A stretch of 64,000 nt of DNA from an uncultured Gemmatimonadaceae bacterium (GTDB lineage: Bacteria > Gemmatimonadota > Gemmatimonadetes > Gemmatimonadales > Gemmatimonadaceae), in assembly GCA_963829055.1 (NCBI GenBank), contig CAWHHI010000008.1, positions 320,001 through 384,000 on the forward strand. Direction: 5' to 3'. The stretch's first letter is position 1. Every line of letters begins with the position of its first letter. The translations under genes were made by a program, and so were the position numbers. The notes under the pieces were generated by a model that did not search any database, had not been told where the DNA came from, and saw only the letters and a program-made list of their open reading frames with translations. This document shows, in pieces, positions 1,709-63,769 of this stretch.

Positions 1709-4134
1709 TACGCAGGGACACGCGTGACGCGCGGGCACGTTCCCCCGGCGGTTCGTCACGACCACGGTCGAGGTCGAGGGCCGCGAGGAGACGAAGGTCG
1801 TCGAGCTGCCCGAACACGAGCCGACGCCATGGGACGAGGACGCCGAGCTGCACATCGTCGGCCAGCGCGCGACCCGCGTGGATGCGCCGGAGAAGGTCGC
1901 GGCCGGGCTCGCTACACGGCGGACCTAACGCGTCCGCGGGCTGCTGCACGCCGCCATCCTTCGCTCGACGATCGCGCGCGGCGCGCGTGAGCCTCGACCT
2001 CGCGCCGGCGCGCGCCGTCGCCGGCGTCGTCGACGTCATTGGCAGCGCGGAGCTCGAGCGACGGATCCGACTCGCCGGCGGCGCGCTGTTCGACACGAGC
2101 GATTGCGTACGCGGGTCAGCCGCTCGCCGCGGTGTGTGCCGAGACCGCCGACGCCGCGTGGCGCGGCGTCGAGGCCATCGTCGCGCGCTACGAGCCGGAG
2201 CCGCACGTCGGGACCTTCGACGCCGCCGTGGCCGAGGGCGCGCCGACGGTGCGCCGATCGTCGAAGAAGCCTGCGTCCGACGACCCGGCGACGGTCGCCA
2301 AACCTGGCGCCCGGCGTCGCCGGACATCGTCGAGCGCGGCGACGTCACGCGCGGCCTGGCCGAGGCGGACGTCGTCGTTAGGCGCGAGTACCGCACGCCG
2401 GTGCAGCTGCACACGGCGCTCGAGCCGCACGGCGCCGTCGCCGAGTGGGACGGCGACCGGCTGACGATCTGGGAGTCGACGCAGGCGGTCTTCCGCGTTC
2501 GCGAGCAGGTCGCGCTCGGCCTCGGGATCAGCCAGTCGTCCGTGCGGGTCATCAAGGAGCACATGGGCGGCGGCTTCGGCGCGAAGACGTCGGCCGGCGC
2601 GCACACCTTCGTCGCGGCGATGCTCGCCCGTCGCACGGGTCGTCCGGTGCGCTGCGTCAACGACCGCGAGGCCGAACAGACCGACACCGGCAACCGTCCA
2701 TCGCACGGCAGCAGCGCGTCACGTTAGGCGCCCGGCGCGACGGCCGGCTCACCGCCATCGTCTGCGAGGCCGACGTGCCGCTCGGCATCGGCGGCTGGGA
2801 GGGCGGGCCGGCGGGCATGTTCCACGAGATGTACTCGTGTCCCAACGTGCGCACCGTGGAATCGCTTCGCCTGGGTGAACACGCCGGCGATGACGGCGTT
2901 CCGCGCGCCGGGCCACGTCGAGGGCGCGTTCGCGCTCGAGAGCGCAATGGATGCGCTCGCGCGCGAGCTCGGCATGGACCCGCTCGAGCTCCGCCGGGTC
3001 AACTTCGCCGAGCGCGACGAGAAGAAGGACCGGCCGTTCTCGAGCAACCGGCTGCGCGAGTGCTACGACCGCGGCGCCGCGACGGTTCGATTGGGACGCG
3101 CCGCGCGCGTCGAGCGGACGGTGGCGTCGCGGCAAGGGGATGGCGGCGCAGGTCTGGGGCGCGGGCGGCGGCCCACCCGCGTACGCGATCGTCAAGATCA
3201 ACGGCGACGGCTCGGCCGACGTGCTCACGGGCACGCAGGACCTCGGCACCGGCTCGCGGACGATCCTCGCGCAGATCGCCGCCGAGTCGTTAGGCGCGCG
3301 GCTCGCAGGACGTGCGCATCGTGCTCGGCGACACCGAGCGGACGCCGTACACGGGCCCATCGTGGGGATCGATGACGACGGCGTCGGTCGGCCCGGCGGT
3401 GCGCGTGTCGCGGCCGAGGATGCGCTGCGCCAACTGCTCGAGGCGGCGTCGGAGGTGCTCGACGTCCATCGTCACGGCTGACGACGCGACGGACAGCGTC
3501 ATCGCGACGGAGGACGGCACCGGCATCGATCACGTTCCGCTCGTTCTGCGACCGGCTCGGCGACGTCATGATCCTCGGACGCGGCGCGCGCGGCCCGAAT
3601 CCCGACAGGCGTCGGGCTGGCGAGCTTCGGCGCGCAGTTCGCCGAGGTCGAGGTCGACGTCGACACGGGCGTGGTTCGCGTGCTCCGCATCGTCGCGGTG
3701 CACGACGCGGGACGCATCATCAACCCGACGCTGGCCGAGAGCCAGGTCGAGGGCGGCATCATCCAGGGGCTCGGCTACGCGCTGTTCGAGGAGCGCGTGC
3801 TCGACCCGGCGACCGGCCGGCATGCTCAACGCGAACATGCACGACTACAAGATCCCGACGATCGGCGACGTGCCGCGGATCGACGTCGAGCTGCTGGACG
3901 TCGCCGGATCCGACGGCGAATCACACGGGCGCGCGCGGCCTCGCGGAGCCGCCGATCATCCCGACGGCGCCGGCGATCGCGAACGCGGTGGCGAACGCGA
4001 TCGGCGTCGAGGTGCACGAGCTCCCGCTGACGCCGTGGCGCGTGTTAGGCGCCTTCGTCATCCCGAGCGTAGAACCCTGTCATCCCGAGCGCAGGACCTT
4101 GTCATCCCGAGCGGCAGCGAGGGATCTCCTGTGA
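1698..4134 (+). CDS. Xanthine dehydrogenase family molybdopterin-binding large subunit (multiple frameshifts)
   Basis: HTALEPH, MGGGFGAK, AFRAPG, QDLGTG, DAGRIINP...QVEGGIIQGLG, DYKIPT and GARGLAEPP motifs in successive frames. Confidence 0.88.
4057..4130. repeat. Three direct copies of GTCATCCCGAGCG with 22-bp period (REP-like element arms)
   Basis: Copies start at 4057, 4079 and 4101; the last continues GCAGCGAGGGATC, like the elements at 15259 and 52306. Confidence 0.85.
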
Positions 4135-4352
4135 TGCTCCGGTAGCCTGTTCGCACCACGAGTACAGTCGAACGCGCAGACTCCAACTACGCAACGCAGA
4201 CCGACACAGGCGGCCGCGACGCGGCGCATCGCAGACACACGCAGAAAACAGCCGCTCGGGACGCCGACGGTGCACCAGGCCTTGGCGAGGGACCGCATTG
4301 GGACGCATGAGAGGCTGCGAACGTCCGCCGTCTTCACCCCCGCGCAACAACG

Positions 4353-4670
4353 CTAGCCCAACGCTCTCCACGGCGGCGGGTCGCCGCGCTTCCGCTTCAG
4401 CTCGGGGTTGTAGCGGTAGAACGTCGCCGTCTTGCCGATGACCTGCACGACCGTGGAGTCCGTTGCGGTCGCGAGCTCCGCCGCCGCTTCCTTCGCCGTG
4501 AGATCGACGTTGCGTCCGAGCTGGACCTTCACCAGCTCGTGTGTCCGCAGCGCGTCGTCGAGTGACTGAATGACCGTTGGACTCAGGCCGTGCTGGCCGA
4601 CGTGCACCAGGGCCGTGAGATGATGCGCTTCCGCGCGGAGCTCGGCGCGGTCGCGCCCGGACAGGGTCAT
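4353..4670 (-). CDS. yhbY: YhbY/CRM-domain RNA-binding protein
   Basis: LRAEAHHL, VGQHGL, HELVKV, VQVIGK..FYR. Confidence 0.92.
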   Translation of the reverse strand: MTLSGRDRAELRAEAHHLTALVHVGQHGLSPTVIQSLDDALRTHELVKVQLGRNVDLTAKEAAAELATATDSTVVQVIGKTATFYRYNPELKRKRGDPPPWRALG

Positions 4671-5230: not shown

Positions 5231-5245
5231 CGACTGCCTAACGAT

Positions 5246-6138: not shown

Positions 6139-7477
<1,339 letters not shown>

Positions 7478-7722: not shown

Positions 7723-8212
7723 ATGGAAGAACCCGAAGGACTTCTCGAGTGGGCAGTCAGCGTCCCGGACGTCATGCGCGACGATCCGATCTGGCGACTA
7801 CCAGCCTATCGGTACGCGCTGTTCCTCGGAGATCTCGTGCAGAACGATGCCCCGGCGATACAGCGCGACCCTCGAACACGGCGTCATCTCGACCAGCTAC
7901 TCGACGCCGTTGGGATCGATCAGCGCGAATATCGCCGAGGGTTACTCGCGAACGACGGGGCCAGAGCGGGCGAAGTTCTTCGAGTATGCACACAGCTCAG
8001 CGCGCGAAGCCAGGGACTGGCTATTCAAGGTGCGGCATGCGCTGGACCCTAACGTGGCAACCGCGCGTATACAGCTCGCAACACGGATCATGAAAATCCT
8101 GACGGTCGCGATTCCACGCGAACGAGCGGACCCAGAATCTCGCGCGCGCCGATGGGAGCGACGCCCGCCCGCGTCGGGCGAAGCGCCCGAGCCGCCGGCG
8201 ACCGGGACCTGA
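7723..8212 (+). CDS. Four helix bundle protein (23S rRNA IVP-like family; frameshift near 7912)
   Basis: IWRLPAYRYAL...DQLLDAVG joined to SISANIAEGYSR...FFEYAHSSAREARDW. Confidence 0.88.
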
Positions 8213-8277: not shown

Positions 8278-8290
8278 CCCGCCGTTGTCG

Positions 8291-9260
8291 TTAGGCAGCG
8301 ACCTCAGCCTGCAGCGGAAATCCATGCTGCTTCCGTCCGATATCGGCCTCATGCTTCGCCGTCGTCTTGTACAGCTCGAATCGTCCGTCGGCCGCGAGAC
8401 CGGCAACCCGCGCACGCAGCGCCTGCCATTTCGTCGTCCGACATCGGAACAAAGCCCGCAGCGATGCGCACGTTCTGACGCAGCACGCGCATCGAGTCGA
8501 TGCCGCTTACCGTCGTCGTCACCGGGAGACTCATCGCGTAGCGTAGCGCCTCCTCGGCCGTCACGACGCGTTTGCGGACTGCGTCGCCCTCGCCGCCCAT
8601 GCTCTTCATGCCGAGGATCGCGAGGCCCTGGCGTCTCGCTTCCGGCAACACCGCCTGCTCGAACGAACGGAACGACGCGTCGAAGCAGTTGAGCGGCATC
8701 TGCACCGAGTCGAACGGGAAGCCGTGCGACAGCATCTCCAGATGGATCTCCGGCAGTTTGTGTCCGGTAAAGCCCACGTAGCGCACGAGCCCGCGCTCCT
8801 TCGCTTCAACGAGCGCCTCGATCACACCGCCTGACGCGAAGTGGTGCTCGGGATCGTTAGGGTACACGCACTCGTGTACCTGCCAGAGATCGAGGTGGTC
8901 GGTCTTGAGGCGCTTGAGGCTTTGCGTCAGCTGGCGCATGGCGACTTTGCGGTCGCGGCCGTGGGTGCAGACTTTCGTCATGAGGAAGACCTGGTCACGA
9001 CGATCGACCAGCGCCTTCCCCATGATCTCCTCGCTCTCGCCCTCGTTGTACTCCCACGCGTTGTCCATGAACGTGATGCCGCGATCGATCGCCGCGTGCA
9101 CGATCCGGATCGCCTCGCGCTGGTTGCCCACGACCCCGAGATGATAGCCGCCGAGTGCGAGGGCGCTGACGGTTTCGGCCGCGCGACCGAAGGGGCGCTT
9201 GGGAATCTCACCGTCACTGGCGCGCGGGACGCTCGTCCGGCGCGATTTCGTCGTAGGCAT
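8291..9260 (-). CDS. Aldo/keto reductase (frameshift near the 3' end)
   Basis: LALGG, GITFMDNAWEY, FLMTK, SLKRLKTDHLDLWQVH, GFTGH. Confidence 0.92.
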
Positions 9261-9340
9261 GGCGGTCCTGGCAGCTGGAGGGCAGGTCGAAGACTGTGAT
9301 CCAGGTCGCAGGAACTGCGCCGACGGGCGCGTGCCCGTGT

Positions 9341-10194: not shown

Positions 10195-10199
10195 CCGCG

Positions 10200-11634
10200 T
10201 TAGGCAGCCCTGTCGATACACGCCGGCCGGCTGTTCAGCGCCGGGTTGTTCTCCTCGGCCTGCGGGACCGGCAGGTTCACGTCAGCACCGTAGTTACCGC
10301 CCCGGTAGTGCTCGCCCACCGGGAAGACCTGGTCCGCCGTCCGACCGTACTGGCGGATCAGCCGGCGCATGTCACCCAGCCGCTGGCCGCGGCTGAACGT
10401 CCAGAACGCCTTCTCGCGGAAGTAGAGATCCTCCGCCAGCTTCTGCGTCGCCGGAACCGCCAGCGCCGCCATCGCCGTGGGCTGGATCTCCCCGAGCTTC
10501 GGTGGCGTTGCGCGCAGGGCGTTGAGGATCGTCATCGTCCCCACGATGTCGCCCGCCTTGAGCCGCCCCTCCGCCTCGATCAGCCGCGCGTCGAGCCCGT
10601 TCACGACGGGCACGGGCGTTAGGCGGCCCCAGAGCGTCGTCGTCCGCGCGAACGTCTTCCCGTCCTGCGACTTCGTCGTGTCACGCCCATTGGACGCGAG
10701 CACGTACTGCGCGGGAACGCGCGGATCCTTCGCCGACACGAACGGGATCGCGTTTCGCACGAGCAGGTTCCGTGCGTTCCCCTCGAGACTGTCGCCAACC
10801 GCATACCGCAGCTGGCTGTTCGGTTGGCTCCAGAGAATGTTGCTGCCCGACGTCACCGCGAACGTGACCTCGTAGCTGAAGCTCGTCGGCACGGCGGTCG
10901 TCGGTACGAGCGCGGCCGCCTCCGCCTGCCGATTCAGTCCAACGAGTGCACGAGCTTTCGTCACCAGCAACGCGCGACGGATCTTCGTCCCGTCCGCATC
11001 CGTCGCGGTCTGCACGAGGGCGAGCCCCGAATCCGCGGACGCAATGGCCACCTGGAACACCTCGGCCCCGGTGCGCGGTGTGTCGTACTCGATCTCGGCG
11101 TTACTGCCATTGGTCAGCGGAATGCCGTTACAGAAGTCGCTCGCCATCTGCATCTCCGCGAACGCGCGAGCGAAGTACAGCTCGGCGATGCGCGCGACCT
11201 CCGTCGGACGGAACTCGTTCATCGACTTGATCGCCTGCGTCGACGACGTGCGGACGCGCGCCAGGTCGCGGAACATGCCCTCCACGGTGCCGTTGTTCGT
11301 CTGGGTGGAACGCTGATCCGTCTCGTCGTTCTGCACGAACGTCGAGCTCGTGGACCACTCGTCCGCGAGCAAACCGCCGAACAACCAACTGCTCCCCTCT
11401 CCGTTGGATCCGCGCAGTCGCCTGACGAAGACGTCCGAGCGCGCCGAAGTAGAGCGCCTGCGCGCCCTCGATGGAGTTCACCGCGATCGGATCGATGATG
11501 TCGGGGTCGGTCGCTTCGAGAAGCGAGTCCTTCGTGCCACAGGCAACGAGCCCGCCCATCAGCGGGAGGACGGCTACGGCCACGGCTCCGACGGCGTTCC
11601 GGAGCCGGCCGCTCAACGCGATTGTATTCATCAT
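10200..11634 (-). CDS. RagB/SusD family lipoprotein 1 (frameshift near 11400-11440)
   Basis: Lipobox LVAC; GGLLADEW, ARLIEAE, REKAFW..GQRLGDMRRLIRQY; directly downstream of susC. Confidence 0.88.
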
Positions 11635-11659
11635 GGGTCGATTGAGTCGTCGTTAGGCG

Positions 11660-14600
11660 TCAGAAGCCGAGGGACATGCGGAGGATGTAGTACGACGCCG
11701 GGCCGGCCGTCTGAAAATCCGACGGGACGTCGCGCGTCGTCGTGCTCGTGACCAGATAGTCGTTCTCCGGATCGAGCCCGCGGTACTTGGTCCAGGTCCC
11801 GAGGTTGCGCGCCGTGACGATGATGTCCGCGCTGCGGGCGCGCAGCAGGTTCGCGAACCGCGGTGCCAGCGCATACCGCATCGTGACCTCGCGCAGCTTG
11901 AGGAACGTGCCGTCCTGCATGAAGCCGTCGAGCGTCTTCGCGGGGTGGTTGAGGTGCGCCACCGCCATCGCCTGCTCCTCGAACGACGCGTCAGGGTTCA
12001 TCATGCCGTTGCAGTTCTGACGGCTCGCACAGCGAATGCGCTCGGTGTTGTTGTACGCCTTGTAGCCACCGCGATAATCCAGTAGCGCCTGCAGCCGCAG
12101 CCGGCGGCTGAACAGGTCGACGCCGTTCGTGAGCGTGACGATGTTCCTCGGCTGCGTATAGCCGCGGAACACGGCCGAGTCGCCGACGAAAACCTCGCAC
12201 GCGGCCGTGTCGTCCTTCGAGTAAGGTCCGCAGCCAGTGGCCGTCAGGATGCCGTCGTTGTTCTTGTCGTTCCAGCCCGTGATGGGACGCGCCCACCAAC
12301 CGAACATCGGATAGCCCTGAACGACGCGCGTCTCGACGTTGATCTGCTGCGGCGTGCCGCCGAGATCGAGCAGCTTGTTCCGGTTCGTCGACGCATTGAG
12401 CGTCACGTCCCAGGCGAACGTCCGGCGATTCAACACCTGCGCGTTCCCGAGGAACTCGAGACCCTGGTTCATCGTGGCGCCCAGGTTGCGGCGTACGGTC
12501 GTGCCGGCCTCGTTGTTCTGTCCGCCCACGCCGGCGGATGGCGCGACGATCGCGCTGATCAGCGCGTCCTGCGTCTTCTTGTGATAGAACGTCAGGTCGA
12601 GGCTGAGCCGGTTGTTCGCGAGCTTCGTCTCGAATCCCGCCTCGAACTCGGTGGACTTCTCGGGCTTGAGCGCGGTGTTGCCGAGCAGGTTGTAGCGCAC
12701 GCCCGGCTGGTCGGTCGAGAGAATGTTCACCGGGTTCGCCTCGAACGTGCGCAGCGCGTCGTTAGGTCCGGGCTGTACGCCCGACGCGCCGTAGGCCGAG
12801 CGGAGCCGGAGCGAGTTGAGCCACGAGAGCTGCGGGAAGAAGCTCTCGTCGGAAAGAATCCACGAGATGCCCGCCTTCGGATACCAGACGCTCTGGAAGT
12901 CCGTCCCGAACGCGCTGTTCTGGTCGGAGCGAACGGCGGCGGTCACGAACAGCCGATCGTTGAAGCCCAGCGCCTCTTCCGCGAAGAAGCCGAGCGTCTT
13001 CTGCAGCGTCGTCGCGCTTGCCGCGTTAGGCTCGGCGCCTGCGGCCGGCGTCTGCGTGCCAGGCGGCAGGTTGGTGCCCTCGCCGGCATTCTGGCTGGAG
13101 CTGTAGTTCACGTATTGCACGCCCGCCGTCGTCTTGGCGTTCAGCCATGGCCGTGGGTTGAACGATCCAGTGCTCGACAGGTTCGCGGTGAGGTTTCGGA
13201 TGTTCGTGCGTCCCTCACCAGCGAAGCCGAGCCGGTAGGTGGAGTTCAGCGGTGGCGCCTCGCCACGATAGCGCAGATCGACGTCCGCGCGATCCGTGAA
13301 GTCGTTTCCGATGGTGACGCGCGTCTGGTTCCAGCTGAAGGGCCGGTAGTTCGCGTCGCCGGACAGGATGAAGCGGTTCACGCCCTGCTCGACCTTCTCC
13401 TGCCACGTGTACCCCGGCGTCCAGGCGCGATAGCCGTTGCACGGCGTCGCGGGCGTCACGGCTACGTTGCAGTTGTCCTTGTAGCCCGGGCCGCCGAACA
13501 GGTGCGAGCCCAGTCCCGCTGTCGCGTTCGACTCGAGTGTGTAGCGCTGATTCAGGTTGATGTACCCGCTCGACACGGCGAGGTCGAGCTTCGGGCCTAA
13601 CGAGGCGCCGACGTTCGCGCGGATGCTGTTCTTGCCGAGCGTGTTCGGGCGGTCCGTCCAGTCGTGGAGCGGGATTCCCTGCTCCTTGAACCGACGCCGC
13701 TCGAAATCCGGAAGCTCCAGCGTGCCGACTTCCTCCTCGCGCTCAGCGGAGACGAAGTACCGGATCGCGTCGGATCCGGCCGACACCTGCGCGCCTGCCT
13801 GCCAGCGGTTGCCGCTCCCGATCGGCGTCGCATCCGGATCATGCGCCGGCGCGTAGACGCGCAGGCTGTCGAACGCACAGCTGCCCGCCGACACCTGCGG
13901 AAGCGTGCATTCGCGATACGCGGTCGATCCCGGCGAGTGGCCAGCGAGCGTGTAGTTCCACGGATACGTGTTGCGGTCTTCGAGATAGCCGCCTTCACCG
14001 TAGACATTCCAGCGTGGCGCGCCGGCGCGGCCCTTCTTGGTCGTGATCACGATGACGCCGTTCGCGGCGTCGGTGCCGTACAGCGTCGCGGCCGACGGCC
14101 CCTTCACGACCTCGATGTTCTCGATCTCCTCGGGATTGATATCGCCGACGCGGCTGGCGTTACCACCGCCGGTGCCGTAGCGGTTGCTCCCAATGTCGCT
14201 CGTCATGCGGATGCCATCGATCACGTAGATCGGATCGTTGGACAGGTTGAGCGAGTTCTGGCCGCGGATACGCACACGCGAGCCCGTGCCCGTCTGCGTC
14301 CCCGTCTGCACCGCGACGCCCGCGGTCCGCGAGTTGATCAGGTCGTCCACACTGCGAACCGGTGCCTCGTCGACGACCTTCGCCGCATCGATCTGCGCGA
14401 CCGAGTTGCCGATCTCGACGCGGCGCTGTTCGCCGGTAGCGGTGGTTACGACCGGCGCCAGGCTGACCGCTACCGCCCCGAGCGCGAAGTCGACGGTCGC
14501 TTCCTCATTGGCCACGACGGTGACCTGCTTCTTCTGCTCCGCGTAGCCGACGCGAAGCACACGGACCTGCTGGACTTGAGGCACGACGCCACGAATGAGT

Positions 14601-14812: not shown

Positions 14813-15258
14813 CCGTTCGAGCCCTCCGCTGAAGGGAACGCGAGCGGCCGCCCCGACTGCGGAGCGCCGCGGGTCCAGCACCGGATCGGTCTGGCGGCGT
14901 CAGGTGGCGTTGCCTAACGACTCGCCGCCGAACTGTCGAGGTCGCGGAGACTCGGCCGAGTCCGGGCCAGCCGGACCGACCGCGCGCCTGGGGTTGGTGT
15001 TCGCTTGGTGCCTGACGAGCTGCCTGACGAGTGGCCGAGCAGACACGGCGGCGCCGGCGCGGGCGCCGCGGTGACTCGGGACTGGGACGAGACCCACTCG
15101 CGCCGCACAAACTCCGTTTCGTCGCGGCGCCTCACAATTCGTTAGGGACGCGCCGCATTTCGAGAGTGGCGAAGCCAACGAGCAACAGGGCTACCTGATG
15201 CCGTGACAAGGCGAGCCGGGCGATTGAGGCGCGTGTCCTCCCGAGGAGCGCCAGCGGT

Positions 15259-15422: not shown

Positions 15423-15476
15423 CTTCACGCGTTAGGCGTGGAACAGTCGCCTAGGGGTTTCTGTTACAGCGTTGTG

Positions 15477-16915: not shown

Positions 16916-16941
16916 GGAATCAGCTAGTCGTCGTTAGGGTC

Positions 16942-20123: not shown

Positions 20124-20225
20124 GAGGAATCAATCTGAACGGCTCGGTCCTGACCCGTCGCAACGCGGGGTGAGGCGCACGCGATGTGACCAAACGCCGT
20201 TAGGGCATGTTGAGTTGTGTCAGCT

Positions 20226-25730: not shown

Positions 25731-25733
25731 CGC

Positions 25734-27983: not shown

Positions 27984-28151
27984 GGCGATGCGCTCGCGCT
28001 CGTTCGTGGGCCGCGCTCCGGACAGCGCGCTTCACGCTATATCTCAGCATTGTGCAAAACGAACCCTGGTCTCGCGTCGGCAGGCGTGATCGACGTTAGG
28101 CGTGAACGGCCGGGCGAACCTCTTCGGACAGGATCAGAGGAACAGAAGCAT

Positions 28152-34553: not shown

Positions 34554-34592
34554 TGTCGTTAGGCCGTCGAGGCTGGAGATCCGTGCGGACCG

Positions 34593-43711: not shown

Positions 43712-43721
43712 TGCCCCTCGT

Positions 43722-44265: not shown

Positions 44266-44498
44266 TCACGGCCTCCACAGACTTCGTTATCCCGCGTCGA
44301 AGCTCCTGACTAACCATCGTTAGGCGGTGAGCAGTAGCCGTCACCGATTACTCCGAGCCCTTCAATACGACAACGCGCCGACTCGACAGACGTCCGCGCG
44401 GGGAACCCACACTCCGCGGAAGCGCCATTGTAGCACGCTCCTCGGCGGAGTAAAACAGGCGATCGTCGTTAGATCGGCGAATCGCCGTTAGATCAGCG

Positions 44499-44837: not shown

Positions 44838-44846
44838 CACTCGCAA

Positions 44847-48479: not shown

Positions 48480-48907
48480 CGCTTCCCTTCTCCTCGCCCG
48501 CGGCGCGGCGGTTTCGTGGTGGAGGTCTCGCCTTCCGTCGCCTGGTCGGCGAGGCGCTCACCGAGCGCGGCGTGCAGCCGCTTCAGCTCTTCGCCGGAGA
48601 GCGGGTGGTCGGAGACCAGGTGCGACACGAGCATCGCGGCGTCACCTCCGAACATCTTGTCGATCAGCTTCGCAACGGCGCTCCGGCCCGCGGTCTTCCG
48701 AGCGACGCGCGGGAAGTACCGGTGGGCCTTGCCCTCGCCCTCGTGCCTAACGAACCCCTTGGCTTCGAGATTCCGGAGGATGGTGAGGACGGTGGTATAG
48801 GCGAGGTCGGCGGGCAGTCGGTCACGCACCTCGGTGACCGTGGCCGAGCCGGTCTCCCAGAGGACGCCCATGACGTCGAGCTCGCGTTCGCCAAATTCAG
48901 GTGGCAC
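48476..48907 (-). CDS. BlaI/MecI/CopY family repressor
   Basis: RELDVMGVLW, LAYTTVLTILRNLEAKG. Confidence 0.92.
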   Translation of the reverse strand: MPPEFGERELDVMGVLWETGSATVTEVRDRLPADLAYTTVLTILRNLEAKGFVRHEGEGKAHRYFPRVARKTAGRSAVAKLIDKMFGGDAAMLVSHLVSDHPLSGEELKRLHAALGERLADQATEGETSTTKPPRRGRGEGKR

Positions 48908-50858: not shown

Positions 50859-52293
<1,435 letters not shown>

Positions 52294-52434: not shown

Positions 52435-53239
52435 ATGCTAGAGATCAGAAATCTTCACGCCAGCGTTGGCGATAAGCCAATCCTTCGCGGCATCAGCCTC
52501 ACGGTGAACGCCGGCGAGGTGCACGCGGTCATGGGGCCTAACGGGTCCGGCAAGAGCACGCTCGCGCAGGTGCTCGCCGGACACCCGGCGTACGAGGTCA
52601 CCGGCGGCGAGGTGTACTACGACGGCGAGAATCTGCTCGAGATGGATCCCGAGGAGCGCGCGCAGAAGGGCGTCTTCCTCGCGTTCCAGTATCCGGTCGA
52701 GATCCCCGGCGTCATCGAACGCGTACTTCCTGCGCTCGGCGTACAACGAGATCCGCAAGGCGCGCGGCGAGGACGAGGTCGATCCGCTCGACTTCCTCGA
52801 CGTCATGGACGAGAAGCTCCAGCTCGTGCACATGAGCGAGGACATGCTGCAGCGCTCGGTGAACACGGGCTTCTCCGGCGGCGAGAAGAAGCGCAACGAG
52901 ATTCTGCAGATGGCGGTGCTCGATCCGAGGCTCGCGATTCTCGACGAGACGGATTCGGGTCTCGACATCGACGCGCTGCGCATCGTCGCCGACGGCGTGA
53001 ACGCCATGCGGCGGCCGGACAACGCGACGATCGTCGTCACGCACTATCAGCGGCTGCTCAACTACATCGTGCCGGACTTCGTCCACGTGCTCGCGGACGG
53101 CCGCATCGTCAGGTCCGGCGGCAAGGAGCTCGCGCTGGAGCTGGAGGCGAAGGGCTACGACTGGGTCACGGAGGCCACGGCTGCGTGGGAAGCCGGAGCG
53201 GCAGCGGCGAGACTCGGTGCAGATCGGGCGGCCGGCACA

Positions 53240-53243
<4 letters not shown>
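52435..53243 (+). CDS. sufC: Fe-S cluster assembly ATPase SufC (frameshifted)
   Basis: [41 protein letters not shown]. Confidence 0.96.
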
Positions 53244-55880
<2,637 letters not shown>

Positions 55881-55881: not shown

Positions 55882-56318
55882 TGTCATTCCGAGGAGCGCA
55901 GCGGCGAGGAATCCGATCATCTCGTAGAGGCGGCCCCTCTGCCGGACAGTCGGATTCCTCGACTGCGCTCGGCTGCGACCTCGCTCGGAATGACGAGTTC
56001 ATCGAAGTCGCGCGGCTCGACGACGTACCCGAGATGGGCGTGCTCGGCGTCGAAGGGCCCGACGGGCGCGGGGTGTGTCTCGTGCGGTTCGGCGGGCGGT
56101 GGCGGCGTTCGCGGACGAGTGTACGCACCAGGCCTTCCCGCTCTCGGCCGGCGAGGTGCACCCGGACGGCACGCTCGAGTGCGTGTGGCACGGCGCGCGG
56201 TTCGACTGCCTAACGGGCGCCGTGCGGCAGCGATCCGGCGACGGATGCTCTCACCGCTTACCCGGTGCGCGTCGATGACGATCGCGTGTTCGTCGGACCG
56301 GCGGAGGTGACACCGTGA
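55881..56318 (+). CDS. Rieske-type ferredoxin (frameshifted)
   Basis: CTHQAFPLS...[10 protein letters not shown]. Confidence 0.88.
55882..55994. repeat. Palindromic element, subtype A, overlapping the Rieske gene start
   Basis: GTCATTCCGAG...GAGGAATCCGA...TCGGATTCCTC...CTCGGAATGAC. Confidence 0.85.
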
Positions 56319-56818: not shown

Positions 56819-57804
56819 ATGGCACAGCACGATCTCGTCGTCGTTGCCGGTGGCGGCGGCTTCATTGGTGGACATCTCGGTGGCGGCGCTCCGGGCAGAA
56901 GGGCGCCGCATTCGCGTCGTGGACGTGAAGCCGATGGACGAGTGGTATCAGCGGTTCGACGACGTCGAGAACGTCGTCGCCGACCTGCAGCGTCGCGAGG
57001 CGTGCATCGCCGCCTGCGACGGAGCGGCCGAGGTCTATCAGCTCGCGTGCGACATGGGCGGCATGGGCTTCATCGAGCACAACAAGGCGTTATGCATGTT
57101 GTCGGTGCTGATCAACACGCACATGCTGGAAGCCGCGCGCGATGCTGGCGTTAGGCGCTTCTTCTACTCGTCGTCCGCGTGCGTGTACAACGCGGACAAG
57201 CAGACGAGGCCCGACCTGGTCGCGCTCCGGGAGGAGGACGCGTATCCCGGCGATGCCCGAGGATGGCTACGGCTGGGAGAAGCTGTTCTCGGAGCGCATG
57301 TGCCGGCACTTCCGCGAGGACTTCGGTCTCGTGACGCGCGTGGCGCGCTATCATAACGCGTACGGCCCGCATGGCACGTGGGAGGGTGGCCGGGAGAAGG
57401 CACCGGCGGCGATCTGCCGGAAGGTGATCGCGGCCAAGGTGAGCGGGAAACACGAGATCCCGATCTGGGGCGACGGGAATCAGTCGCGGTCGTTCATGTA
57501 CATCTCGGACTGCGTGCGCGGGACGCGGGCGATCATGGACAGCGACATCATCGAGCCGATCAACCTCGGGTCGAGCGAGCTGGTGACGATCAACCAGCTG
57601 GTGTCGATCGTGGAGGGGATCGCGGGGATCGAGTTGAAGCGGACGTACGACCTGACGGCGCCGAAGGGCGTGAACGGGCGGAACTCGGACAACACGAAGA
57701 TCCGCGAGTACCTCGGCTGGGAGCCGTCGGTGGCGCTACGCGATGGGCTCGAGAAGACGTATCGGTGGATCTACGACGACTACGTCGCCAAGTACGGAAG
57801 CTGA
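56819..57804 (+). CDS. NAD-dependent epimerase, GDP-mannose 3,5-epimerase-like (frameshifted)
   Basis: GGGGFIGG, CDMGGMGFI, YSSSACVY, YGWEK, REKAPAA, GRNSDN. Confidence 0.9.
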
Positions 57805-59417: not shown

Positions 59418-60472
59418 GCGGGGACGTATCGCCACCGCATCGTTACCAGTGACCTCGAAGCGATCGGCGGAACTCAGCTTCCGTGGGAGCTGCTCGATGG
59501 AGCAACGGTGGCGATTACCGGCGCGTCCGGGCTCGTTGCATCATATCTCGCCGAGGCGCTGCTCTTTCGAAATGAATCGTATGGTTCGCGAATTCGGGTG
59601 GTCGCGGCCGTTCGCAATCCGTCGGCTGCGCGCGAGCGGTTCTCCGCGTACCGTGGACGCGACGACATAGAGATCGTAGAGCATGACGCCGCCGGGCCAC
59701 TCGAATACGTTGGACGCATTAACTATCTCGTGCACGCAGCCGGCAATGCGACCCCGAGCTCCTTTGGCCGCGACCCAATCGGCACCTACGCGCCTAACGT
59801 CGTCGGGACTCACCATTTGATGCAGCGAGCGCATGCAGACGCGCTCGGCAGCGGTGCTCTTTCTGAGCAGCGGGGCGGTTCATGGTGCTCTTGCCCCTGA
59901 TGCCCCGATCTTGCGGGAGGATGTTTATGGAATTGTCGATCCGCTCGACCCTCGAGCGAGTTATGCCGAGTCCAAACGCATGGGAGAGACGATCTGCCGA
60001 AGCTGGTGGGTGCAGCATGGAGTGCCCGTGCGGATGGCGCGCCTAGGGCACACCTACGGCCCCGGGATGCGGCGCTCGGACGAGCGCGCGTTCGCCCAGT
60101 TCGTCTTCAGTGCGATCGACGGGAAGGACATCGTATTGAACAGCGACGGCTCGGCAGTTCGCCCGTACTGCTATCTTGCCGACGCCACTGCTGCATTACT
60201 TCGGGTGCTACTCGTTGGCTCCAACGGAGAGGCATACCTGGTCGCAAACACGTCGGCCTCGTGCTCGATCCGTGAGCTGGCGGATCTGGTTGCGAGCCTC
60301 GCACCGACACCGATCAGCGTACGGCGCGCTACAGCCGCTCCGCCGGCCGAGTACTTGCCCAATCGGGACCCGGCGCACCCGCTCGATATCTCGAAAATAC
60401 GTGCGCTCGGCTGGGAGCCACGCACGGGCCTCCGTGAAGGGTTCCGTCAAGACGATCGAGAGTTACCAATGA
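59414..60472 (+). CDS. NAD-dependent epimerase/decarboxylase (frameshifted)
   Basis: ITGASGLVA, YAESKR, HTYGPG, LGWEPR. Confidence 0.86.
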
Positions 60473-61402
60473 CTGCTCGCCCCAGTGACCTGCGCCAGCA
60501 ATACCTGAGTGGAGCGCTCGACAAGCATGAGTACGCGCGTCGGATCGGCGAGCACCACCTAACGCTGCGGGACCTGGCGGGGTTGCTGAAGGGATCGGAC
60601 ATTTCAACGATCGAGTTGAGTGCTGACGGAGTAACATTTGTCAGCCGCTTTGGTGGGGCGCGATTTCCGTGCGACCCTGTGGATCGCGGGCTTCCGCCCG
60701 TTGTTGCACTCAACTTCGGCAGCTACGAGTCGAAGGACTTCGAGATGCTGCTGGCGCTCGTGCCACGCGGCGCGACGTTCGTCGATGTCGGAGCGAACAT
60801 CGGTTGGTATTCAGTGCACGTCGCGGTCGCCGATCCTACCGCGCGCGCAATCGCGATCGAGCCAATTCCGAGCTCATTTCGCTGGCTCTCCGCGGCGGTC
60901 GCCGCAAACGCCCTACCTAACGTGATAACGATCGAATGTAGCGGTGGGCGCAGAACGCGGTGAGTTGACGCTCTTCGTGGATGCGACGATCTCCGGCGCG
61001 GCGTCAGCGGCTCCGTCAACCGGTCCGTCAGGCCTCGAACAGGTAACGTGTCCCGTCGTCACAATTGATGACGTCGTCGCCGAACACGGTGGCCGAGCCG
61101 ACGTTCTGAAGCTCGATATCGAGGGCGCGGAGCTTTTCGCACTCCGCGGCGCAGCGAGCGTTCTCGCGATGCAACGTCCGATTGTCTTCTGCGAGATGCT
61201 CCGAAAGCTCGCGCGGCCGTTCGGCTACCACCCGAACGACATTATCACTCTCATGCGCGGACACGGCTACGATTGCTACCGGGCGGATGGGGTCGACTCA
61301 TTCCATTCGAGTCAATGGACGACGAAACGATCGAGACGAACTTCTACTTTCTGCACCAGGATGCTCACGCGCACGAGCGCGCAAAGTTCGTCAGTTCGCT
61401 GA
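60469..61402 (+). CDS. FkbM family methyltransferase (frameshifted; 3' end approximate)
   Basis: DVGANIG, IEP, KLDIEGAE. Confidence 0.88.
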
Positions 61403-61415: not shown

Positions 61416-62370
61416 TCAGAAGTTCAGTCGTTCGAGTTCGTGGACTAGCGGCCGGTTCTTCACATAGGTGTAGATCGGCGCCCACGTATTCGCCGACGAC
61501 GCCGATGAAGATCAACTGAATTGCGGAGAGGAAGAAGAAGCCAATCACCATCGGCGCGATCCCAAGATTGAAGCTGTTCCAAAGCGCAATCTTCGCGACC
61601 AGGTAGCCGAAACCAACCAGCATGCTCAGGACGGCGCCGTCGCCACTCCGGTGAGAGTTGCCATGCGAAGCGGGATCTTCGAGTGGTTGACGATTCCCTG
61701 GAACGCGACGTCGAATAGTTCGTACGTGCTGATCTTGCTCTTGCCGGCTCGCCGCACTTCCTGACGGTAGGGGATCTTCACGCCTTGTAGCCCGTTTCCG
61801 CGACGAGCCCGCGAAAGAACGGGTACGGGTCCGCGATCTGGCGGAGCGAGGATGATGCGTTGGTCGTAGATGCCGAAGCCGGTCGCCTGATGAACGACCT
61901 CTACGTCGGCGACCTTCGCCAACCATCGATAGTACGTGTCGCGCACTTTGTACATGAACCAGTGTTCGTCGCTCTCGAGCTTGACGCCAAGTGCAATACG
62001 CGCTCCGGCGGCCCAAGCAGCCAGGAGTTGCGGAATCAGCGCGGGCGGGTCCTGAAAGTCGGCCCGATGCCAATGACTGCGTCGCCTCGTGCTTGCAACA
62101 GGCCATATACCGGTGACCGAATCGGGCCGAAGTTTCGCGTGTTGAGGATCACCTTCACAGCCGGGTCGGCAGCTGCCGAGCTCACGCAAGATCGCCGGCG
62201 TGCTGTCCGTCGATCCGTTATCGATGAACAAGTGCTCGTACCGATACGCTGGCAGACGGTCAATTCGCGCTTCACCGCGAGATAGATCTCGCGGACGTTA
62301 GGCTCCTCGTTGTAGCACGGAGTGACGACGGTAATGAGCGGATTCGACGATGGTTGGGGAGTTTGAGACT
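61416..62370 (-). CDS. GT2 glycosyltransferase, GtrB-like (frameshifted)
   Basis: VVTPCYNE, IDNGSTD, RNFG, ADFQDPP, two C-terminal TMs, IGVVGEY. Confidence 0.86.
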
Positions 62371-62420
62371 TGCAGCCCACGAAGGCGTTGTTCGCGATCG
62401 AAGTCGCGCTGTTTCGCGAT

Positions 62421-63769
62421 CTACAACGTCTTCCTGTGGGGCTGTTGGACCTGGAGCAACGCGAGTGGAAGGCTCTCGCGCCGATGACGAGTGCCGCGTA
62501 CCCTCCAACGGTGCGCTCGGCCGAGCGTCCGACAGCGACCGCAAATGTCCCCGCTGTCACGATCAGAGCGCCGTGATCGCGGTTTCCATGAGCGACTCTT
62601 CTCGCCACGCTCGAAGGTAGCTTCCGAAAGACTGAGTAAGCAGCCATGCAAGGTTGGTCGCACCGACGACGAGAGATCCACCGGGCCGGTAGCGCCCGCG
62701 ATGCGACCGTCGGAGACAGACCTCCGACGAACGACACAACGGCTGCCGCGGCGATAGCTCCGCAAGTTGCGACGGCCACCGCTTGGAGCGTTGCCCTCGT
62801 CGCGAGGCGACGGAGTTCGATTGCGCCGCCGCGCGAAAGCAACAAGGCAGTACTGTGGGTATCTCGCCCGCAGCCACGCAATACTGAGCAGTCTAGCGGT
62901 GCCGTGGCAATTGCGAACGTCATGCCTACCCGCCCCGCCGCGACGGCGCCCTGTGTCACTAGAACGATCGCGGTGACGCTCTGTGGCGCCACCCACCGGC
63001 GAGCCATGTCGCGCCTGTGCGCCACTGCACTTCACCGAGCCCACCGGTTCTCTCAGTGCCGTGCCGGACCTGCGAGCGGCCTTCGACGACCAAGCCTGGG
63101 TGGCGTAAGCGAAGCCATCCCCCGTTATCGACACCCACGCAAGCGAAAACGCGGGCAACACCCCACGGGGCACCCAGCCCAAGAATCGCAATCCAGAGCG
63201 CTCAGGGCGGAGACCCACGTCTGTAGGAGCTCGCATCCGTTGCACACGAAGTAGGCCGCCGCAGCCCTCGATTGCACACAGCGATGGAATGAGCGGCAGG
63301 TACGCAGCCGTGACACCGCACCGTGATGCAGCCACGGCAGCAAAGCTGGTCGCCCAACCTCGCCCGCCTGTGGGAAGATCAACGCGATACTCCCCAACCG
63401 CATCCAACGACACCTAACGTCAATGCAACGCGGCCGTACCAGCGCTGCCCATCGTGTATCGCACGATGACACGCGAGCGCAGCGATGCGGAGTCGCCGGC
63501 CAACCCGCCGCGAGCATTCCATCGAGGAAAGCGGATTCATGGCTCGCCACCTGCACCATAAGCGTCCCGACGCCGAGCTCCATGAGCTGCGTCAGCGCCT
63601 GCAGGTTCCAGAGAATGAAAAATACTCCCTGTTCGGCAGGCGGTCGTCTGGTCGCGACGAGCCAAAGCGTCACTGGCGCTGCGAGTAGGAGCGACAACCG
63701 CGTCAGGAGAACGAACGCAACAGCAAGATCAAAGTGCGCAGCGGCCCTGCCCCGCCATGACATTGTCAT
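62421..63769 (-). CDS. Probable polysaccharide flippase (Wzx-like; frameshifted)
   Basis: Polytopic; EQGVFFIL..LQAL.QLMELG; located in a sugar-nucleotide cluster. Confidence 0.55.

What the first reader, a model, noticed from the sequence alone, without database searches (positions are those of the whole stretch)
1924..63419. Highly iterated non-palindromic heptamer CGTTAGG/CCTAACG imposed across the window
Seen: a manual scan found at least 53 exact copies, about 1 per 1.2 kb. CGTTAGG on + has 31 copies (e.g. 2376, 2722, 3288, 8289, 10198, 13024, 28409, 34718, 51128, 55519, 62296) and CCTAACG has 22 (e.g. 1924, 6731, 13596, 24555, 31870, 48746, 52537, 60916). The next base is usually C. Nearly every TTAGG/CCTAA pentamer I noticed sits in this context. 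It occurs inside conserved genes (thiC, sufB, sufC, sufS, susC), where it forces codons rare at this GC content (TTA-GGC, CCT-AAC). It also clusters at stop codons and gene junctions (5237, 8289, 10198, 11651, 16932, 25733, 32943, 34557). Rough calculation: at about 68% GC (eyeballed), the zero-order expectation is about 7 copies on both strands. Established: dispersed motifs like this are known as DNA-uptake sequences (Neisseria, Pasteurellaceae), cyanobacterial HIP1, and Chi/KOPS, the last two being strand-polarised. Inference: the near-balanced strand use fits an uptake-sequence-like, nucleoid-protein or DNA-modification/repair signal better than Chi/KOPS. I do not recognise this motif as described.
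Basis: partly seen in the sequence, partly recalled or inferred. Interest (0 to 1): 0.88.

Follow-up and report, generated by a model that had tools for sequence, protein, structure and literature searches.

The report
Integron core word written genome-wide
One eight-letter DNA word, identical to the boundary signal of integron gene cassettes, has been written thousands of times into this soil bacterium's genes against its own codon habits, and also into some relatives, their phages and a second phylum; this looks like a "self tag" whose reader is still unknown.

Summary
The window holds 53 exact CGTTAGG (3.6 expected) and the 7.8-Mb genome holds 6,391, about one per 1.2 kb. The count in genes is about 11 times any codon-preserving null. 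The word is also present in short-read contigs of independent public runs and at orthologous sites in congeners, so it is not an artefact.

It is a free-standing 8-mer, CGTTAGGC. It is strand-symmetric with no replichore polarity, occurs in all four stop-free frames, and is spaced more evenly than chance. It arose by in-situ substitution and is conserved above background.

- **Main finding:** the word equals the 3' end (R' core plus the preceding C) of integron attC sites in relatives' cassette arrays. More than 99% of copies here are solitary.
- **Not tracking it:** integron integrase, AddAB-like nucleases, TopIB, ComEC, PilQ and Tad. RecC was found in 1 of 41 genomes. ComP and DNA methylases were not found.
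- **Where else:** patchily within this order, genome-wide in Chthoniobacterales (as TCGTTAGGC), and in two unrelated phage contigs.

Best reading (about 0.35): a kin/self tag maintained by biased DNA exchange, like DUS/USS, with its specificity borrowed from the integron core.

This scan found the same word before on other genomes. I found nothing in print.

The parts
1924..1930 (-). word copy (GCGTTAGGT), intergenic by crude ORF calls
   Evidence: conserved in G001 and G002, CCTAACA in G005
2376..2382 (+). word copy in MoCoBD ORF 1987-2727+, read NNC-GTT-AGG
   Evidence: conserved in G001, G002, G005
2722..2728 (+). word copy overlapping the stop codon (CGT-TAG-G) of ORF 1987-2727+
   Evidence: conserved in G001, G002, G005
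3288..3294 (+). word copy in ORF 3140-3481+, read NCG-TTA-GGN
   Evidence: conserved in G001, G002, G005
5237..5243 (-). word copy overlapping the stop codon (CGT-TAG-G) of ORF 5238-6155-
6462..6468 (+). word copy in thiC (ORF 6139-6852-), read CCT-AAC-GNN
6731..6737 (-). word copy in thiC, read NCG-TTA-GGN
   Evidence: present in public-run contigs
6803..6809 (-). word copy in thiC, read NCG-TTA-GGN
   Evidence: present in public-run contigs
8048..8054 (-). word copy, intergenic
8289..8295 (+). word copy, intergenic (downstream of aldo/keto reductase ORF)
   Evidence: CGTTAGG in G004, TGTCAGG in G005
8855..8861 (+). word copy in aldo/keto reductase ORF 8349-9260-, read CCT-AAC-GNN
   Evidence: conserved in G003, G004, G005; in a public-run contig with 0 differences
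10198..10204 (+). word copy overlapping the stop codon (CC-TAA-CG) of ORF 10200-11384-
10617..10623 (+). word copy in ORF 10200-11384-, read NNC-CTA-ACG
   Evidence: present in G005, CGTGCTC and TGTCGAG in G003 and G004
11651..11657 (+). word copy, intergenic (just past the end of the TonB-receptor ORF)
   Evidence: present in G004 and G005, CGGTCGG in G003
12760..12766 (+). word copy in TonB-dependent receptor ORF 11660-14881-, read CCT-AAC-GNN
13024..13030 (+). word copy in TonB-dependent receptor ORF, read CCT-AAC-GNN
13596..13602 (-). word copy in TonB-dependent receptor ORF, read NCG-TTA-GGN
14913..14919 (-). word copy, intergenic
15140..15146 (+). word copy, intergenic
15430..15436 (+). 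word copy, intergenic
16932..16938 (+). word copy, intergenic
17923..17929 (-). word copy in Plug-domain ORF 17866-19656-, read NNC-GTT-AGG
20198..20204 (+). word copy, intergenic
22304..22310 (+). word copy in FAD_binding_5 ORF 21831-22742+, read NNC-GTT-AGG
23619..23625 (-). word copy in ORF 23598-23951+, read CCT-AAC-GNN
24555..24561 (-). word copy, intergenic
24798..24804 (+). word copy in ORF 24718-25266-, read CCT-AAC-GNN
25733..25739 (-). word copy in ORF 25525-26331-, read NCG-TTA-GGN
28094..28100 (+). word copy in ABC-2 transporter ORF 28086-29435+, read NNC-GTT-AGG
28409..28415 (+). word copy in ABC-2 transporter ORF, read NNC-GTT-AGG
31870..31876 (-). word copy in ORF 30964-31908+, read CCT-AAC-GNN
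32737..32743 (-). word copy overlapping the stop codon (CC-TAA-CG) of ORF 31905-32741+
32943..32949 (-). word copy overlapping the stop codon (CGT-TAG-G) of TPR ORF 32944-34032-
33987..33993 (+). word copy overlapping the stop codon (CC-TAA-CG) of ORF 33989-34198-
34557..34563 (+). word copy, intergenic
34718..34724 (+). word copy, intergenic
35457..35463 (+). word copy in TadE/G-like ORF 35191-35835-, read CCT-AAC-GNN
39482..39488 (+). word copy, no ORF called (lies in the T2SSE-like frame 38208-39545-)
44318..44324 (+). word copy, intergenic
48307..48313 (-). word copy in BlaR1/TonB_C ORF 47217-48479-, read NCG-TTA-GGN
48746..48752 (-). word copy in penicillinase-repressor ORF 48476-48964-, read NNC-GTT-AGG
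51128..51134 (+). word copy, no ORF called by my model
52537..52543 (-). word copy, no ORF called by my model
53377..53383 (+). word copy in ORF 52805-53599+, read NNC-GTT-AGG
55118..55124 (+). word copy, no ORF called by my model
55519..55525 (+). word copy in short ORF 55400-55567-, read CCT-AAC-GNN
56209..56215 (-). word copy, no ORF called by my model
57149..57155 (+). word copy, intergenic
59793..59799 (-). word copy, intergenic
60558..60564 (-). word copy in epimerase ORF 59833-60963+, read NNC-CTA-ACG
60916..60922 (-). word copy in epimerase ORF 59833-60963+, read CCT-AAC-GNN
62296..62302 (+). word copy, intergenic
63413..63419 (-). word copy, intergenic

Best explanation
CGTTAGG(C) is a real, free-standing genomic signature word. 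In sequence it is the isolated R' core site of integron attC sites together with the C that precedes it. It has been written about 6,400 times into this Gemmatimonadaceae-type genome by point substitution in place, against GC and codon preference, and it is kept by a force acting on the DNA itself. Most likely it works as a kin/self tag. An unidentified sequence-specific protein would read the double-stranded word in either orientation when DNA is exchanged (uptake or recombination of incoming DNA). Alleles carrying the word would then be transferred and fixed preferentially, as with the molecular drive plus selection proposed for DUS and USS. One tag per few hundred bases would suffice, which fits the even spacing. 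The specificity was probably borrowed from the cassette boundary shared by the soil integron pool. SHOWN: the excess, the anatomy, in-situ origin, conservation and turnover, identity with attC ends, patchy phylogeny, and presence in phages and in a second phylum. INFERRED: that a protein reads it, that the step is DNA exchange, and that the match to attC is causal.
For: Density is 1 per 1.2 kb, with 3,237 copies on + and 3,154 on -. There is no conserved flank beyond about 8-9 bp. There is no replichore polarity: 1,260/1,172 where GC skew is positive and 1,750/1,771 where it is negative. All four stop-free frames are used (1,631, 1,239, 801 and 560), plus 503 copies at stop codons and 1,639 intergenic. 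The count in CDS is 11 times the codon-preserving nulls. Gaps under 100 bp number 149 against 509 expected, while gaps of 400-1,600 bp are enriched; G014 shows the same pattern. Copies sit in permissive places: at stops, about 2x in the 100 nt downstream, and about 1.5x upstream of starts. Conservation in congeners is 19/20 against 45% of control 7-mers at 85% identity or more, and 9/16 against 26% at 78-85%. Orthologous non-word sites are GC-rich synonyms such as CGCTCGG or CGGTCGG that differ at 2-4 positions. Between genera, 4 of 54 (G014) and 4 of 8 (G010) words share G000's exact position, against about 0.03 expected. Treangen et al. (PMC2397512, abstract and passages read) describe the same pattern for DUS: permissive locations, high conservation, and too many differences for single mutations. 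ComEC and a PilQ-like secretin are present. The flank differs between phyla: T at -1 in 91-94% of Chthoniobacterales copies, against a mix of G and T here. The word is identical to attC 3' ends in arrays of this order and of other phyla. Integrons recruit cassettes from transformed ssDNA (PMC12614218, abstract).
Against: No uptake bias has been measured. ComEC (40/41) and PilQ-like (40/41) are universal in the order and so do not track the word. ComP_DUS was found in 0 of 8 word-rich genomes. Two unrelated phage contigs carry the word at 1.0 and 2.5 per kb inside terminase and capsid genes, with no DNA similarity to this genome. DUS, by contrast, are absent from recently acquired genes (PMC2397512). 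This favours a reader acting inside the cell, unless these phages are long-resident prophages. No dialects were seen within the order: a word-poor relative (G008, 100 kb) has no other hyper-abundant word. Spacing in the Chthoniobacterales sample is near-exponential. Word-rich genomes have small or no cassette arrays near intI, which weakens the idea that uptake is aimed at cassettes.
Confidence: 0.35

Rival explanations
1. The word is an intracellular 'self' signal. Any replicon carrying it is spared or helped by a host DNA-processing machine (a helicase-nuclease or a defence system), in the way Chi works. Chromosome and phages alike would then be selected to carry it.
For: Two unrelated phage contigs (different TerS/TerL PHROGs) are studded with the word: 30 copies in 12.2 kb and 19 in 18.3 kb, each against 1.0 expected. 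Copies lie inside structural genes and the flanks resemble the Gemmatimonadaceae type. The density is similar to that of Chi-like motifs (recalled). Even spacing fits diminishing returns.
Against: There is no strand polarity relative to GC skew. RecC (PF04257) was found in 1 of 41 relatives and not in G000. AddAB-like PDDEXK_1 pairs were found in 4 of 8 word-rich, 3 of 8 intermediate and 11 of 25 word-poor genomes, and not in G001, G002, G005 or G014. No known system reads such a word. This reading gives no reason for the identity with attC.
Confidence: 0.2
2. The integron integrase, or a protein derived from it, reads the solitary words as double-stranded R boxes. They might serve as attG-like landing sites, nicking sites or swivels. 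The genome-wide spread would be a by-product or an exaptation of integron recombination.
For: The word is 8/8 identical to the attC 3' end. Within attC-like sites of arrays it appears in 19 of 22, 5 of 6 and 6 of 7 cases (G027, G025), and in 24/24, 22/22, 19/21, 19/20, 9/10 and 3/3 cases in arrays of other phyla. Recombination occurs between the first and second base of GTTRRRY (PMC8876359, passages read). The same word occurs in two phyla that both hold integrons. The minor attC variants CGTTAGGT and TGTTAGGC are also the commonest one-off variants genome-wide.
Against: IntI over the curated cut-off was found in 4 of 8 word-rich, 4 of 8 intermediate and 16 of 25 word-poor relatives, and in 2 of 5 further word-rich genomes. 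G014, the densest relative, has only fragments. More than 99% of copies lack the inverse core and hairpin that IntI needs on attC. Most copies lie inside genes, where cassette insertion would be harmful. I could find no step by which site-specific recombination would create words by substitution.
Confidence: 0.15
3. The words are binding sites of a nucleoid-associated or chromosome-structuring protein, kept by selection for regular coverage, as has been proposed for HIP1.
For: Short gaps are 3x depleted and gaps of 400-1,600 bp are enriched. The word is independent of orientation. It is conserved above background. HIP1 is quasi-periodic and under purifying selection (PMC13756078, passages read).
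Against: Spacing is near-exponential in the Chthoniobacterales sample. The distribution is sharply patchy even within one genus: about 3,500-4,100 copies against 66. This reading gives no reason for identity with attC or for phage enrichment. No candidate protein is known.
Confidence: 0.12
4. The word is the target of a DNA methyltransferase or modification system, and its excess comes from biased very-short-patch-type repair.
For: HIP1 is recognised by two methylases (PMC13756078, abstract).
Against: No PF01555, PF02384 or PF00145 methyltransferase was found in G000. The three regex candidates are RsmD-type or PD40 proteins. A one-step repair bias cannot build a roughly 50-fold excess from neighbours that each number only 10-800. 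PF02086, PF05869 and PF07669 were not searched on their own.
Confidence: 0.05
5. The excess is an artefact of composition, codon usage or basecalling.
For: The assembly has 1-base indel errors, for example in thiC at about 6840.
Against: Shuffles and codon-preserving nulls fall far below the observed counts. The same sites appear in five congeners assembled in 260-1,170 contigs. The words are present in contigs of 4 public runs from 4 studies. There are thousands of copies in other genomes.
Confidence: 0.01

Closest known systems
DNA uptake sequences: DUS of Neisseriaceae and USS of Pasteurellaceae
   Same: A short non-palindromic word at about 1 per kb on both strands, inside genes in permissive positions. 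It is highly conserved yet turns over, is clade-specific with flank 'dialects', and is spaced more evenly than chance. New copies differ from their orthologues at several positions (PMC2397512).
   Different: No competence phenotype or uptake bias is known. No ComP_DUS homologue was found. The core machinery does not track the word. Phages are enriched rather than devoid. The same word is shared by two phyla. The word equals the integron core site.
Integron recombination core site (R' box GTTRRRY of attC and attI; secondary attG sites)
   Same: Identical sequence: CGTTAGGC is the 3' end of attC in cassette arrays of this order and of Acidobacteriota, Armatimonadota and Gammaproteobacteria records. 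TAG and TAA inside the core serve as stop codons, as described for cassettes (PMC8876359).
   Different: Copies are solitary, on both strands, inside core genes, without an inverse core or hairpin, and not in arrays next to intI. IntI does not track them. They arise by substitution, not insertion.
HIP1 (GCGATCGC) of cyanobacteria
   Same: A hyper-abundant octamer found in coding and non-coding DNA. It is conserved, quasi-evenly spaced, and its function is unresolved (PMC13756078).
   Different: The word here is not palindromic. No cognate methyltransferases were found. It is restricted to patches of one order plus Chthoniobacterales rather than spread across a phylum.
Chi sites of RecBCD/AddAB
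   Same: An over-represented 5-8-mer that is also adopted by phages of the host (the phage point is recalled from Bobay et al. 2013, not read here).
   Different: There is no replication polarity. RecC is essentially not found and AddAB does not track the word. The excess is far stronger and forces rare codons.

Membership tests
DNA uptake sequence (DUS/USS) | Hyper-abundant short word, about 1 per kb, equal on both strands, genome-wide | tested here: met
   6,391 copies (3,237 on +, 3,154 on -) in 7.78 Mb; no polarity
DNA uptake sequence (DUS/USS) | Preferential uptake of word-bearing DNA by competent cells | not testable with these tools
   Needs uptake or transformation assays
DNA uptake sequence (DUS/USS) | Competence machinery and a specific receptor (ComP for DUS) | tested here: inconclusive
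   ComEC in 40/41 and a PilQ-like secretin in 40/41 genomes, present in both word-rich and word-poor ones. ComP_DUS PF16732 was found in 0 of 8 word-rich genomes.
DNA uptake sequence (DUS/USS) | Rare or absent in recently acquired DNA and mobile elements | tested here: not met
   Two phage contigs carry 1.0 and 2.5 words per kb. The word-free stretches at contig ends are uninterpretable.
Integron attC site | R' core GTTRRRY at the 3' end | tested here: met
   The word is GTTAGGC preceded by C, identical to attC ends in arrays
Integron attC site | Paired inverse core (RYYYAAC) 50-130 nt upstream that forms a hairpin; same-strand arrays next to intI | tested here: not met
   Close (-,+) pairs are not enriched. 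Only about 2 attC-like sites lie near the intI at C20:208041-208958.
Integron attC site | Dependence on an integron integrase | tested here: not met
   IntI over the cut-off in 4/8 word-rich, 4/8 intermediate and 16/25 word-poor genomes, and in 2/5 further word-rich genomes
Chi | Orientation bias with replication direction | tested here: not met
   1,260/1,172 and 1,750/1,771 in windows of positive and negative GC skew
Chi | Cognate RecBCD or AddAB present | tested here: not met
   RecC in 1/41 genomes. PDDEXK_1 pairs not found in the word-rich genomes G001, G002, G005 and G014.
HIP1-type iterated palindrome | Palindromic word recognised by cognate methyltransferases | tested here: not met
   The word is not a palindrome. 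No PF01555, PF02384 or PF00145 match in G000.
KOPS / architecture-imparting sequences | Strand skew that switches at origin and terminus | tested here: not met
   Spearman rho 0.17 between GC skew and word strand bias over 145 windows of 50 kb
REP/MITE-type dispersed repeat | Conserved sequence extending beyond the core; intergenic insertion | tested here: not met
   Flanks show only codon periodicity. Orthologous sites differ by substitutions without indels.

The most novel reading that the evidence does not exclude
These bacteria have a DNA-exchange specificity (uptake or post-entry recombination) aimed at the universal integron cassette boundary CGTTAGGC. A reader that evolved to favour cassette-bearing DNA from the soil gene pool has, by molecular drive, overwritten whole chromosomes in two phyla and the genomes of their phages with the integron core site. 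This would be the first uptake-type tag outside Proteobacteria and a direct mechanistic link between natural transformation and integrons.
Probability: 0.15. Interest if true: 0.92.

Novelty: new variant of a known kind. Interest (0 to 1): 0.76.

Why it matters
Hyper-abundant genomic words are few: DUS, USS, HIP1 and Chi. Each has opened a chapter of DNA-exchange or repair biology.

This one is as strong as DUS or USS. It lies in little-studied soil phyla. It recurs patchily, which gives natural contrasts for finding its reader: for example one genus with about 4,000 copies in three species and 66 in a fourth.

It is shared by phages, which makes it useful for host assignment. It is letter-for-letter the integron cassette boundary, which hints at an unrecognised link between integrons and genome-wide DNA recognition.

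It also matters in practice. The word distorts codon statistics: 55% of all TTA codons lie inside it. It creates about 7% of stop codons. It flags foreign or chimeric DNA in assemblies.

Tried and rejected
1. Base modification via assembly errors. I asked whether candidate frameshift junctions lie near words. The count was 58 against 30 expected, but the test is confounded because the word itself contains stop codons and marks gene ends. Dropped.
2. thiC as a cassette-like insertion bounded by words. The left boundary is not at a word. Rejected.
3. Candidate readers or partners that do not track the word:
   - ComEC.
   - IntI.
   - RecC.
   - AddAB-like genes.
   - PilQ.
   - ComP_DUS.
   - Tad RcpC: found in 3 of 8 word-rich genomes and in several word-poor ones.
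   - TopIB PF01028: found in 8/8 word-rich relatives (G014 only as a fragment), 3/8 intermediate and 8/25 word-poor. It is also present in word-poor G293 and not found in word-rich G419, and the paralogue types are inconsistent. A weak association, not explanatory.
4. GTA or prophage packaging drive. No HK97 capsid or TerL ATPase was found in G000.
5. Methyltransferases. None found.
6. 'Dialects' in word-poor relatives. None in a 100-kb sample of G008. In G021 the top 8-mer is CGTCAGGC at only 36 against 8.7 expected.
7. Cross-phylum HGT screen for a shared reader. A pilot on 166 kb of G419 gave median 38% and maximum 62% amino-acid identity, with no outlier. It is underpowered without whole genomes.
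8. Viral scan. 77 of the 80 fetched loci have fewer than 0.8 words per kb and are mostly chance pairs.
9. Genome-collection scan. Many hits are attC arrays or unrelated tandem repeats.
10. Read laying. Parts of the stretch without long contig pieces say nothing.
11. Literature. Searches found no paper describing this word as a genome-wide signal.

Full report
OBSERVATION.

The expectation from 100 dinucleotide-preserving shuffles is 3.62 (sd 1.88, largest 9). The window is G000:C8:320001-384000 of a 7,784,024-base, 20-contig assembly of 66.7% GC.

Genome-wide there are 6,391 copies, 3,237 on + and 3,154 on -, or one per 1.2 kb. The next base is C in 78% of copies and T in 13%. Position -1 is G or T and position -2 is C or G. 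Further out only codon periodicity is seen, so this is a free-standing 8-mer and not part of a longer repeat. 86% of all TTAGG pentamers lie in this context. The other fifteen NNTTAGG words have 6-462 copies each. One-off variants are not enriched apart from TGTTAGGC (435), CGTTAGGT (827) and CGTTAGGG (428).

In my crude ORF set (7,328 ORFs, 78% of the genome) there are 4,265 copies in CDS. Five within-gene synonymous shuffles gave 361-409, and three resamplings from genome-wide codon usage gave 261-278. 55% of all TTA codons (1,638 of 2,965) and 19% of CTA codons lie inside the word.

NOT AN ARTEFACT.

The assembly does carry 1-base indels. thiC is split near 6840, and contigs of four public runs from four studies all lack one letter at 6840 or 6841. 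The same contigs carry the words, however. Pieces with no differing letter cover the words at 6731, 6803 and 8855, and none of the 40 differing places shown lies in a word (170 more were not shown).

Five congeners assembled in 260-1,170 contigs have the word at orthologous sites.

ANATOMY.

- **Frames.** All four stop-free frames are used: NCG-TTA-GGC 1,631, CCT-AAC-G 1,239, C-CTA-ACG 801 and C-GTT-AGG 560. In the two remaining frames the word supplies the stop codon: CC-TAA-CG 283 and CGT-TAG-G 220. 1,639 copies are intergenic.
- **Orientation.** Orientation relative to transcription is balanced. So is orientation relative to GC skew: 1,260/1,172 against 1,750/1,771, with rho 0.17 over 145 windows.
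- **Gene ends.** 305 of 4,089 ORFs of 600 nt or more end in the word. Density is about 2x in the 100 nt after stops and about 1.5x before starts.
- **Spacing.** Short gaps are depleted: 149 observed against 509 expected below 100 bp, and 259 against 468 at 100-200 bp. Gaps of 400-1,600 bp are enriched. Inverted close pairs are not enriched.
- **Word-free stretches.** Three stretches of 31-50 kb have no word. All are at contig ends and carry housekeeping genes at GC 0.66-0.73. They may be chimeric joins. I draw nothing from them.

EVOLUTION.

In alignments with congeners, word sites are conserved at 19 of 20 where block identity is 85% or more, against 45% of all 7-mers. At 78-85% identity the figures are 9 of 16 against 26%, and below 78% they are 3 of 12 against 18%.

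Where one species lacks the word, it has a GC-rich sequence without indels, such as CGGTCGG, CGTCGGG or CGTTCGG. Words are therefore gained and lost by substitution in place, mostly at the T, T and A positions and against the compositional bias.

Between genera, G014 (median 63% amino-acid identity) shares 4 of its 54 aligned words with G000. The low-density G010 shares 4 of its 8. About 0.03 would be expected by chance. The commonest orthologous alternative is CG-CTC-GG, which is the preferred Leu codon. The trait is therefore old. Most copies are lineage-specific, and a few sites persist.

DISTRIBUTION.

I inferred the taxon of G000. Multi-kb syntenic matches of 70-79% identity link it to records titled Gemmatimonadaceae.

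- **Close relatives.** Among 41 relatives, 8 genomes have 2,501-6,360 copies of the 8-mer: all 7 of the genus plus G014. Five have 345-605, three have 173-194, and 25 have 65 or fewer, below their reversed-word control.
- **Phylum sample.** In a sample of 401 genomes, 8 have 1,000 or more copies and 9 have 400-999. All are in two families of this order. None of the 135 genomes of the other nine families exceeds 70. One genus holds three species with 3,479-4,141 copies and one with 66. The tallies include rows for unpublished genomes: G013 in the 41, and G085, G124 and G203 in the 401.
- **No dialect.** A 100-kb sample of word-poor G008 has no other hyper-abundant word.
- **Second phylum.** A scan of the genome collection plus whole-genome counts show the same word genome-wide in records titled Chthoniobacterales or Verrucomicrobiae: 4,562 copies in 3.2 Mb, 5,186 in 4.3 Mb, 1,465 in 2.4 Mb and 1,155 in 3.2 Mb. 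Their proteins are distant from G000, with median 38% identity and RpoB/RpoC-size ORFs at about 54%. There the word is a 9-mer, with T at -1 in 91-94% of copies, and spacing is near-exponential.

THE INTEGRON LINK.

This lead came from an earlier AI note. I tested it here.

In word-poor relatives the few copies cluster on one strand at intervals of about 500-650 bp. Each is the 3' end of an attC hairpin of about 85 nt: 5' GCCTAAC-A ... C-GTTAGGC 3', folding at -18 to -39 kcal/mol. Within such arrays the attC end is CGTTAGGC in 19 of 22, 5 of 6 and 6 of 7 cases in this order. In records of Acidobacteriota, Capsulimonadaceae, Blastocatellia and Arenimonas the figures are 24/24, 22/22, 19/21, 19/20, 9/10 and 3/3. 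Those loci were ascertained by holding three copies of the word.

GTTRRRY is the 7-bp core shared by attI and attC, with the crossover between its first two bases (PMC8876359, passages read). The genome-wide word is thus the cassette boundary, letter for letter.

In G000, however, only about two attC-like sites lie near the one intI (C20:208041-208958, 265.7 bits), and more than 99% of copies are solitary.

WHAT DOES NOT TRACK IT.

| Candidate | Word-rich | Intermediate | Word-poor |
|---|---|---|---|
| IntI over cut-off | 4 of 8 (G014 fragments only) | 4 of 8 | 16 of 25 |
| IntI, further word-rich genomes | 2 of 5 | - | - |
| AddAB-like PDDEXK_1 | 4 of 8 | 3 of 8 | 11 of 25 |
| TopIB (PF01028) | 8 of 8 (one a fragment) | 3 of 8 | 8 of 25 |

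- RecC was found in 1 of 41 genomes.
- ComEC was found in 40 of 41 and a PilQ-like secretin in 40 of 41.
- ComP_DUS was found in 0 of 8 word-rich genomes.
- TopIB is also present in word-poor G293 and was not found in word-rich G419.
- Tad RcpC was found in 12 of 41 genomes with no pattern.
- G000 has no PF01555, PF02384 or PF00145 methyltransferase.
- G000 has no HK97 capsid or TerL ATPase.

PHAGES.

It gave mostly chance pairs, but 3 loci had 0.8 or more words per kb. I examined two of them and both are phage:

- L165 has TerL and TerS, with 30 words in 12.2 kb.
- L111 has TerS, TerL, a protease, a major head protein, an adaptor and two methyltransferases, with 19 words in 18.3 kb.

Each has 1.0 word expected. 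The words lie on both strands and inside structural genes. The two contigs have different terminase families, Gemmatimonadaceae-type flanks and no DNA similarity to G000.

INTERPRETATION.

Shown: a strong force at the DNA level writes and keeps one 8-mer in every kind of sequence context. It acts in a patchy set of lineages of two phyla and in their phages, and the word is the integron core site.

Inferred: a sequence-specific reader exists.

The anatomy matches DUS and USS point for point: density, symmetry, permissive sites, conservation with turnover, and multi-substitution gains (PMC2397512, abstract and passages read). Integrons are known to recruit cassettes from transformed ssDNA (PMC12614218, abstract only). 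I therefore rank a DNA-exchange tag first, at 0.35.

Phage enrichment and the lack of any tracking competence gene keep an intracellular 'self' signal (0.20), an IntI-derived reader (0.15) and a structural-site reading (0.12) alive. Methylation and repair (0.05) and artefact (0.01 or less) are poorly supported.

PRIOR WORK.

This scan reported the same word before on other genomes. Four literature searches found no paper describing it. Supplements were not consulted.

Noticed in passing
window 9340-9500 (also 10070-10160): A REP/MITE-like element with inverted ends TGTCATTCCGAGCGG ... CCGCTCGGAATGACA. It is multi-copy in all five congeners searched and is the source of the other over-represented 8-10-mers of the genome, such as TCGGAATGA and TCCGCTCGGA.
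   Followed up: partly
window 6821-6849 (thiC): thiC is split into two frames. Contigs of four public runs lack one letter at 6840/6841, so this is an assembly indel and not a pseudogene. Chorismate synthase is split in the same way elsewhere.
   Followed up: yes
G000:C6:5440-55038, C6:591808-623330, C11:1-44055: Three stretches of 31-50 kb without a single word. All lie at contig ends, have GC 0.66-0.73 and carry housekeeping genes (trp and aro operons, ftsK, greA). They may be chimeric joins with another organism.
   Followed up: partly
window 36000-47000: A Tad/Flp pilus locus (TadE/G, T2SSF, CpaF-like, secretin N domain, RcpC) with fragmentary ORFs. It holds only 2 words in 11 kb, against about 9 at the genome's mean density, so it may be a recent arrival.
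   Followed up: no
L349-L357 (G419:C17), L263, L267: In Chthoniobacterales records the word is a 9-mer, TCGTTAGGC, with T at -1 in 91-94% of copies. Spacing there is close to exponential, unlike in Gemmatimonadaceae.
   Followed up: partly
L236-L238, L284-L286 (Haliangium record), L229, L277, L295: Very dense same-strand arrays of CGTTAGGC without an inverse core, for example 147 copies in 10.5 kb. They occur in a Haliangium MAG, cyanobacteria and Thermoguttaceae. They look like tandem repeats of some other kind.
   Followed up: no
G000:C4:50478-51122 and C19:85120-85710: Two paralogous bacterial type IB topoisomerases (PF01028) occur in every genome of the genus. The family is otherwise rare: 1 of 14 control genomes has it.
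   Followed up: partly
L069-L073 (G021:C3): In G021 the top-ranked 8-mer is CGTCAGGC (36 against 8.7 expected), one letter from the word. It could be chance codon usage or a decayed relative of the word.
   Followed up: no
L111:933, 2237, 5016; L165:3709, 7075: In the phage contigs several genes end exactly in the word (CC-TAA-CG). The share is higher than in the host.
   Followed up: no
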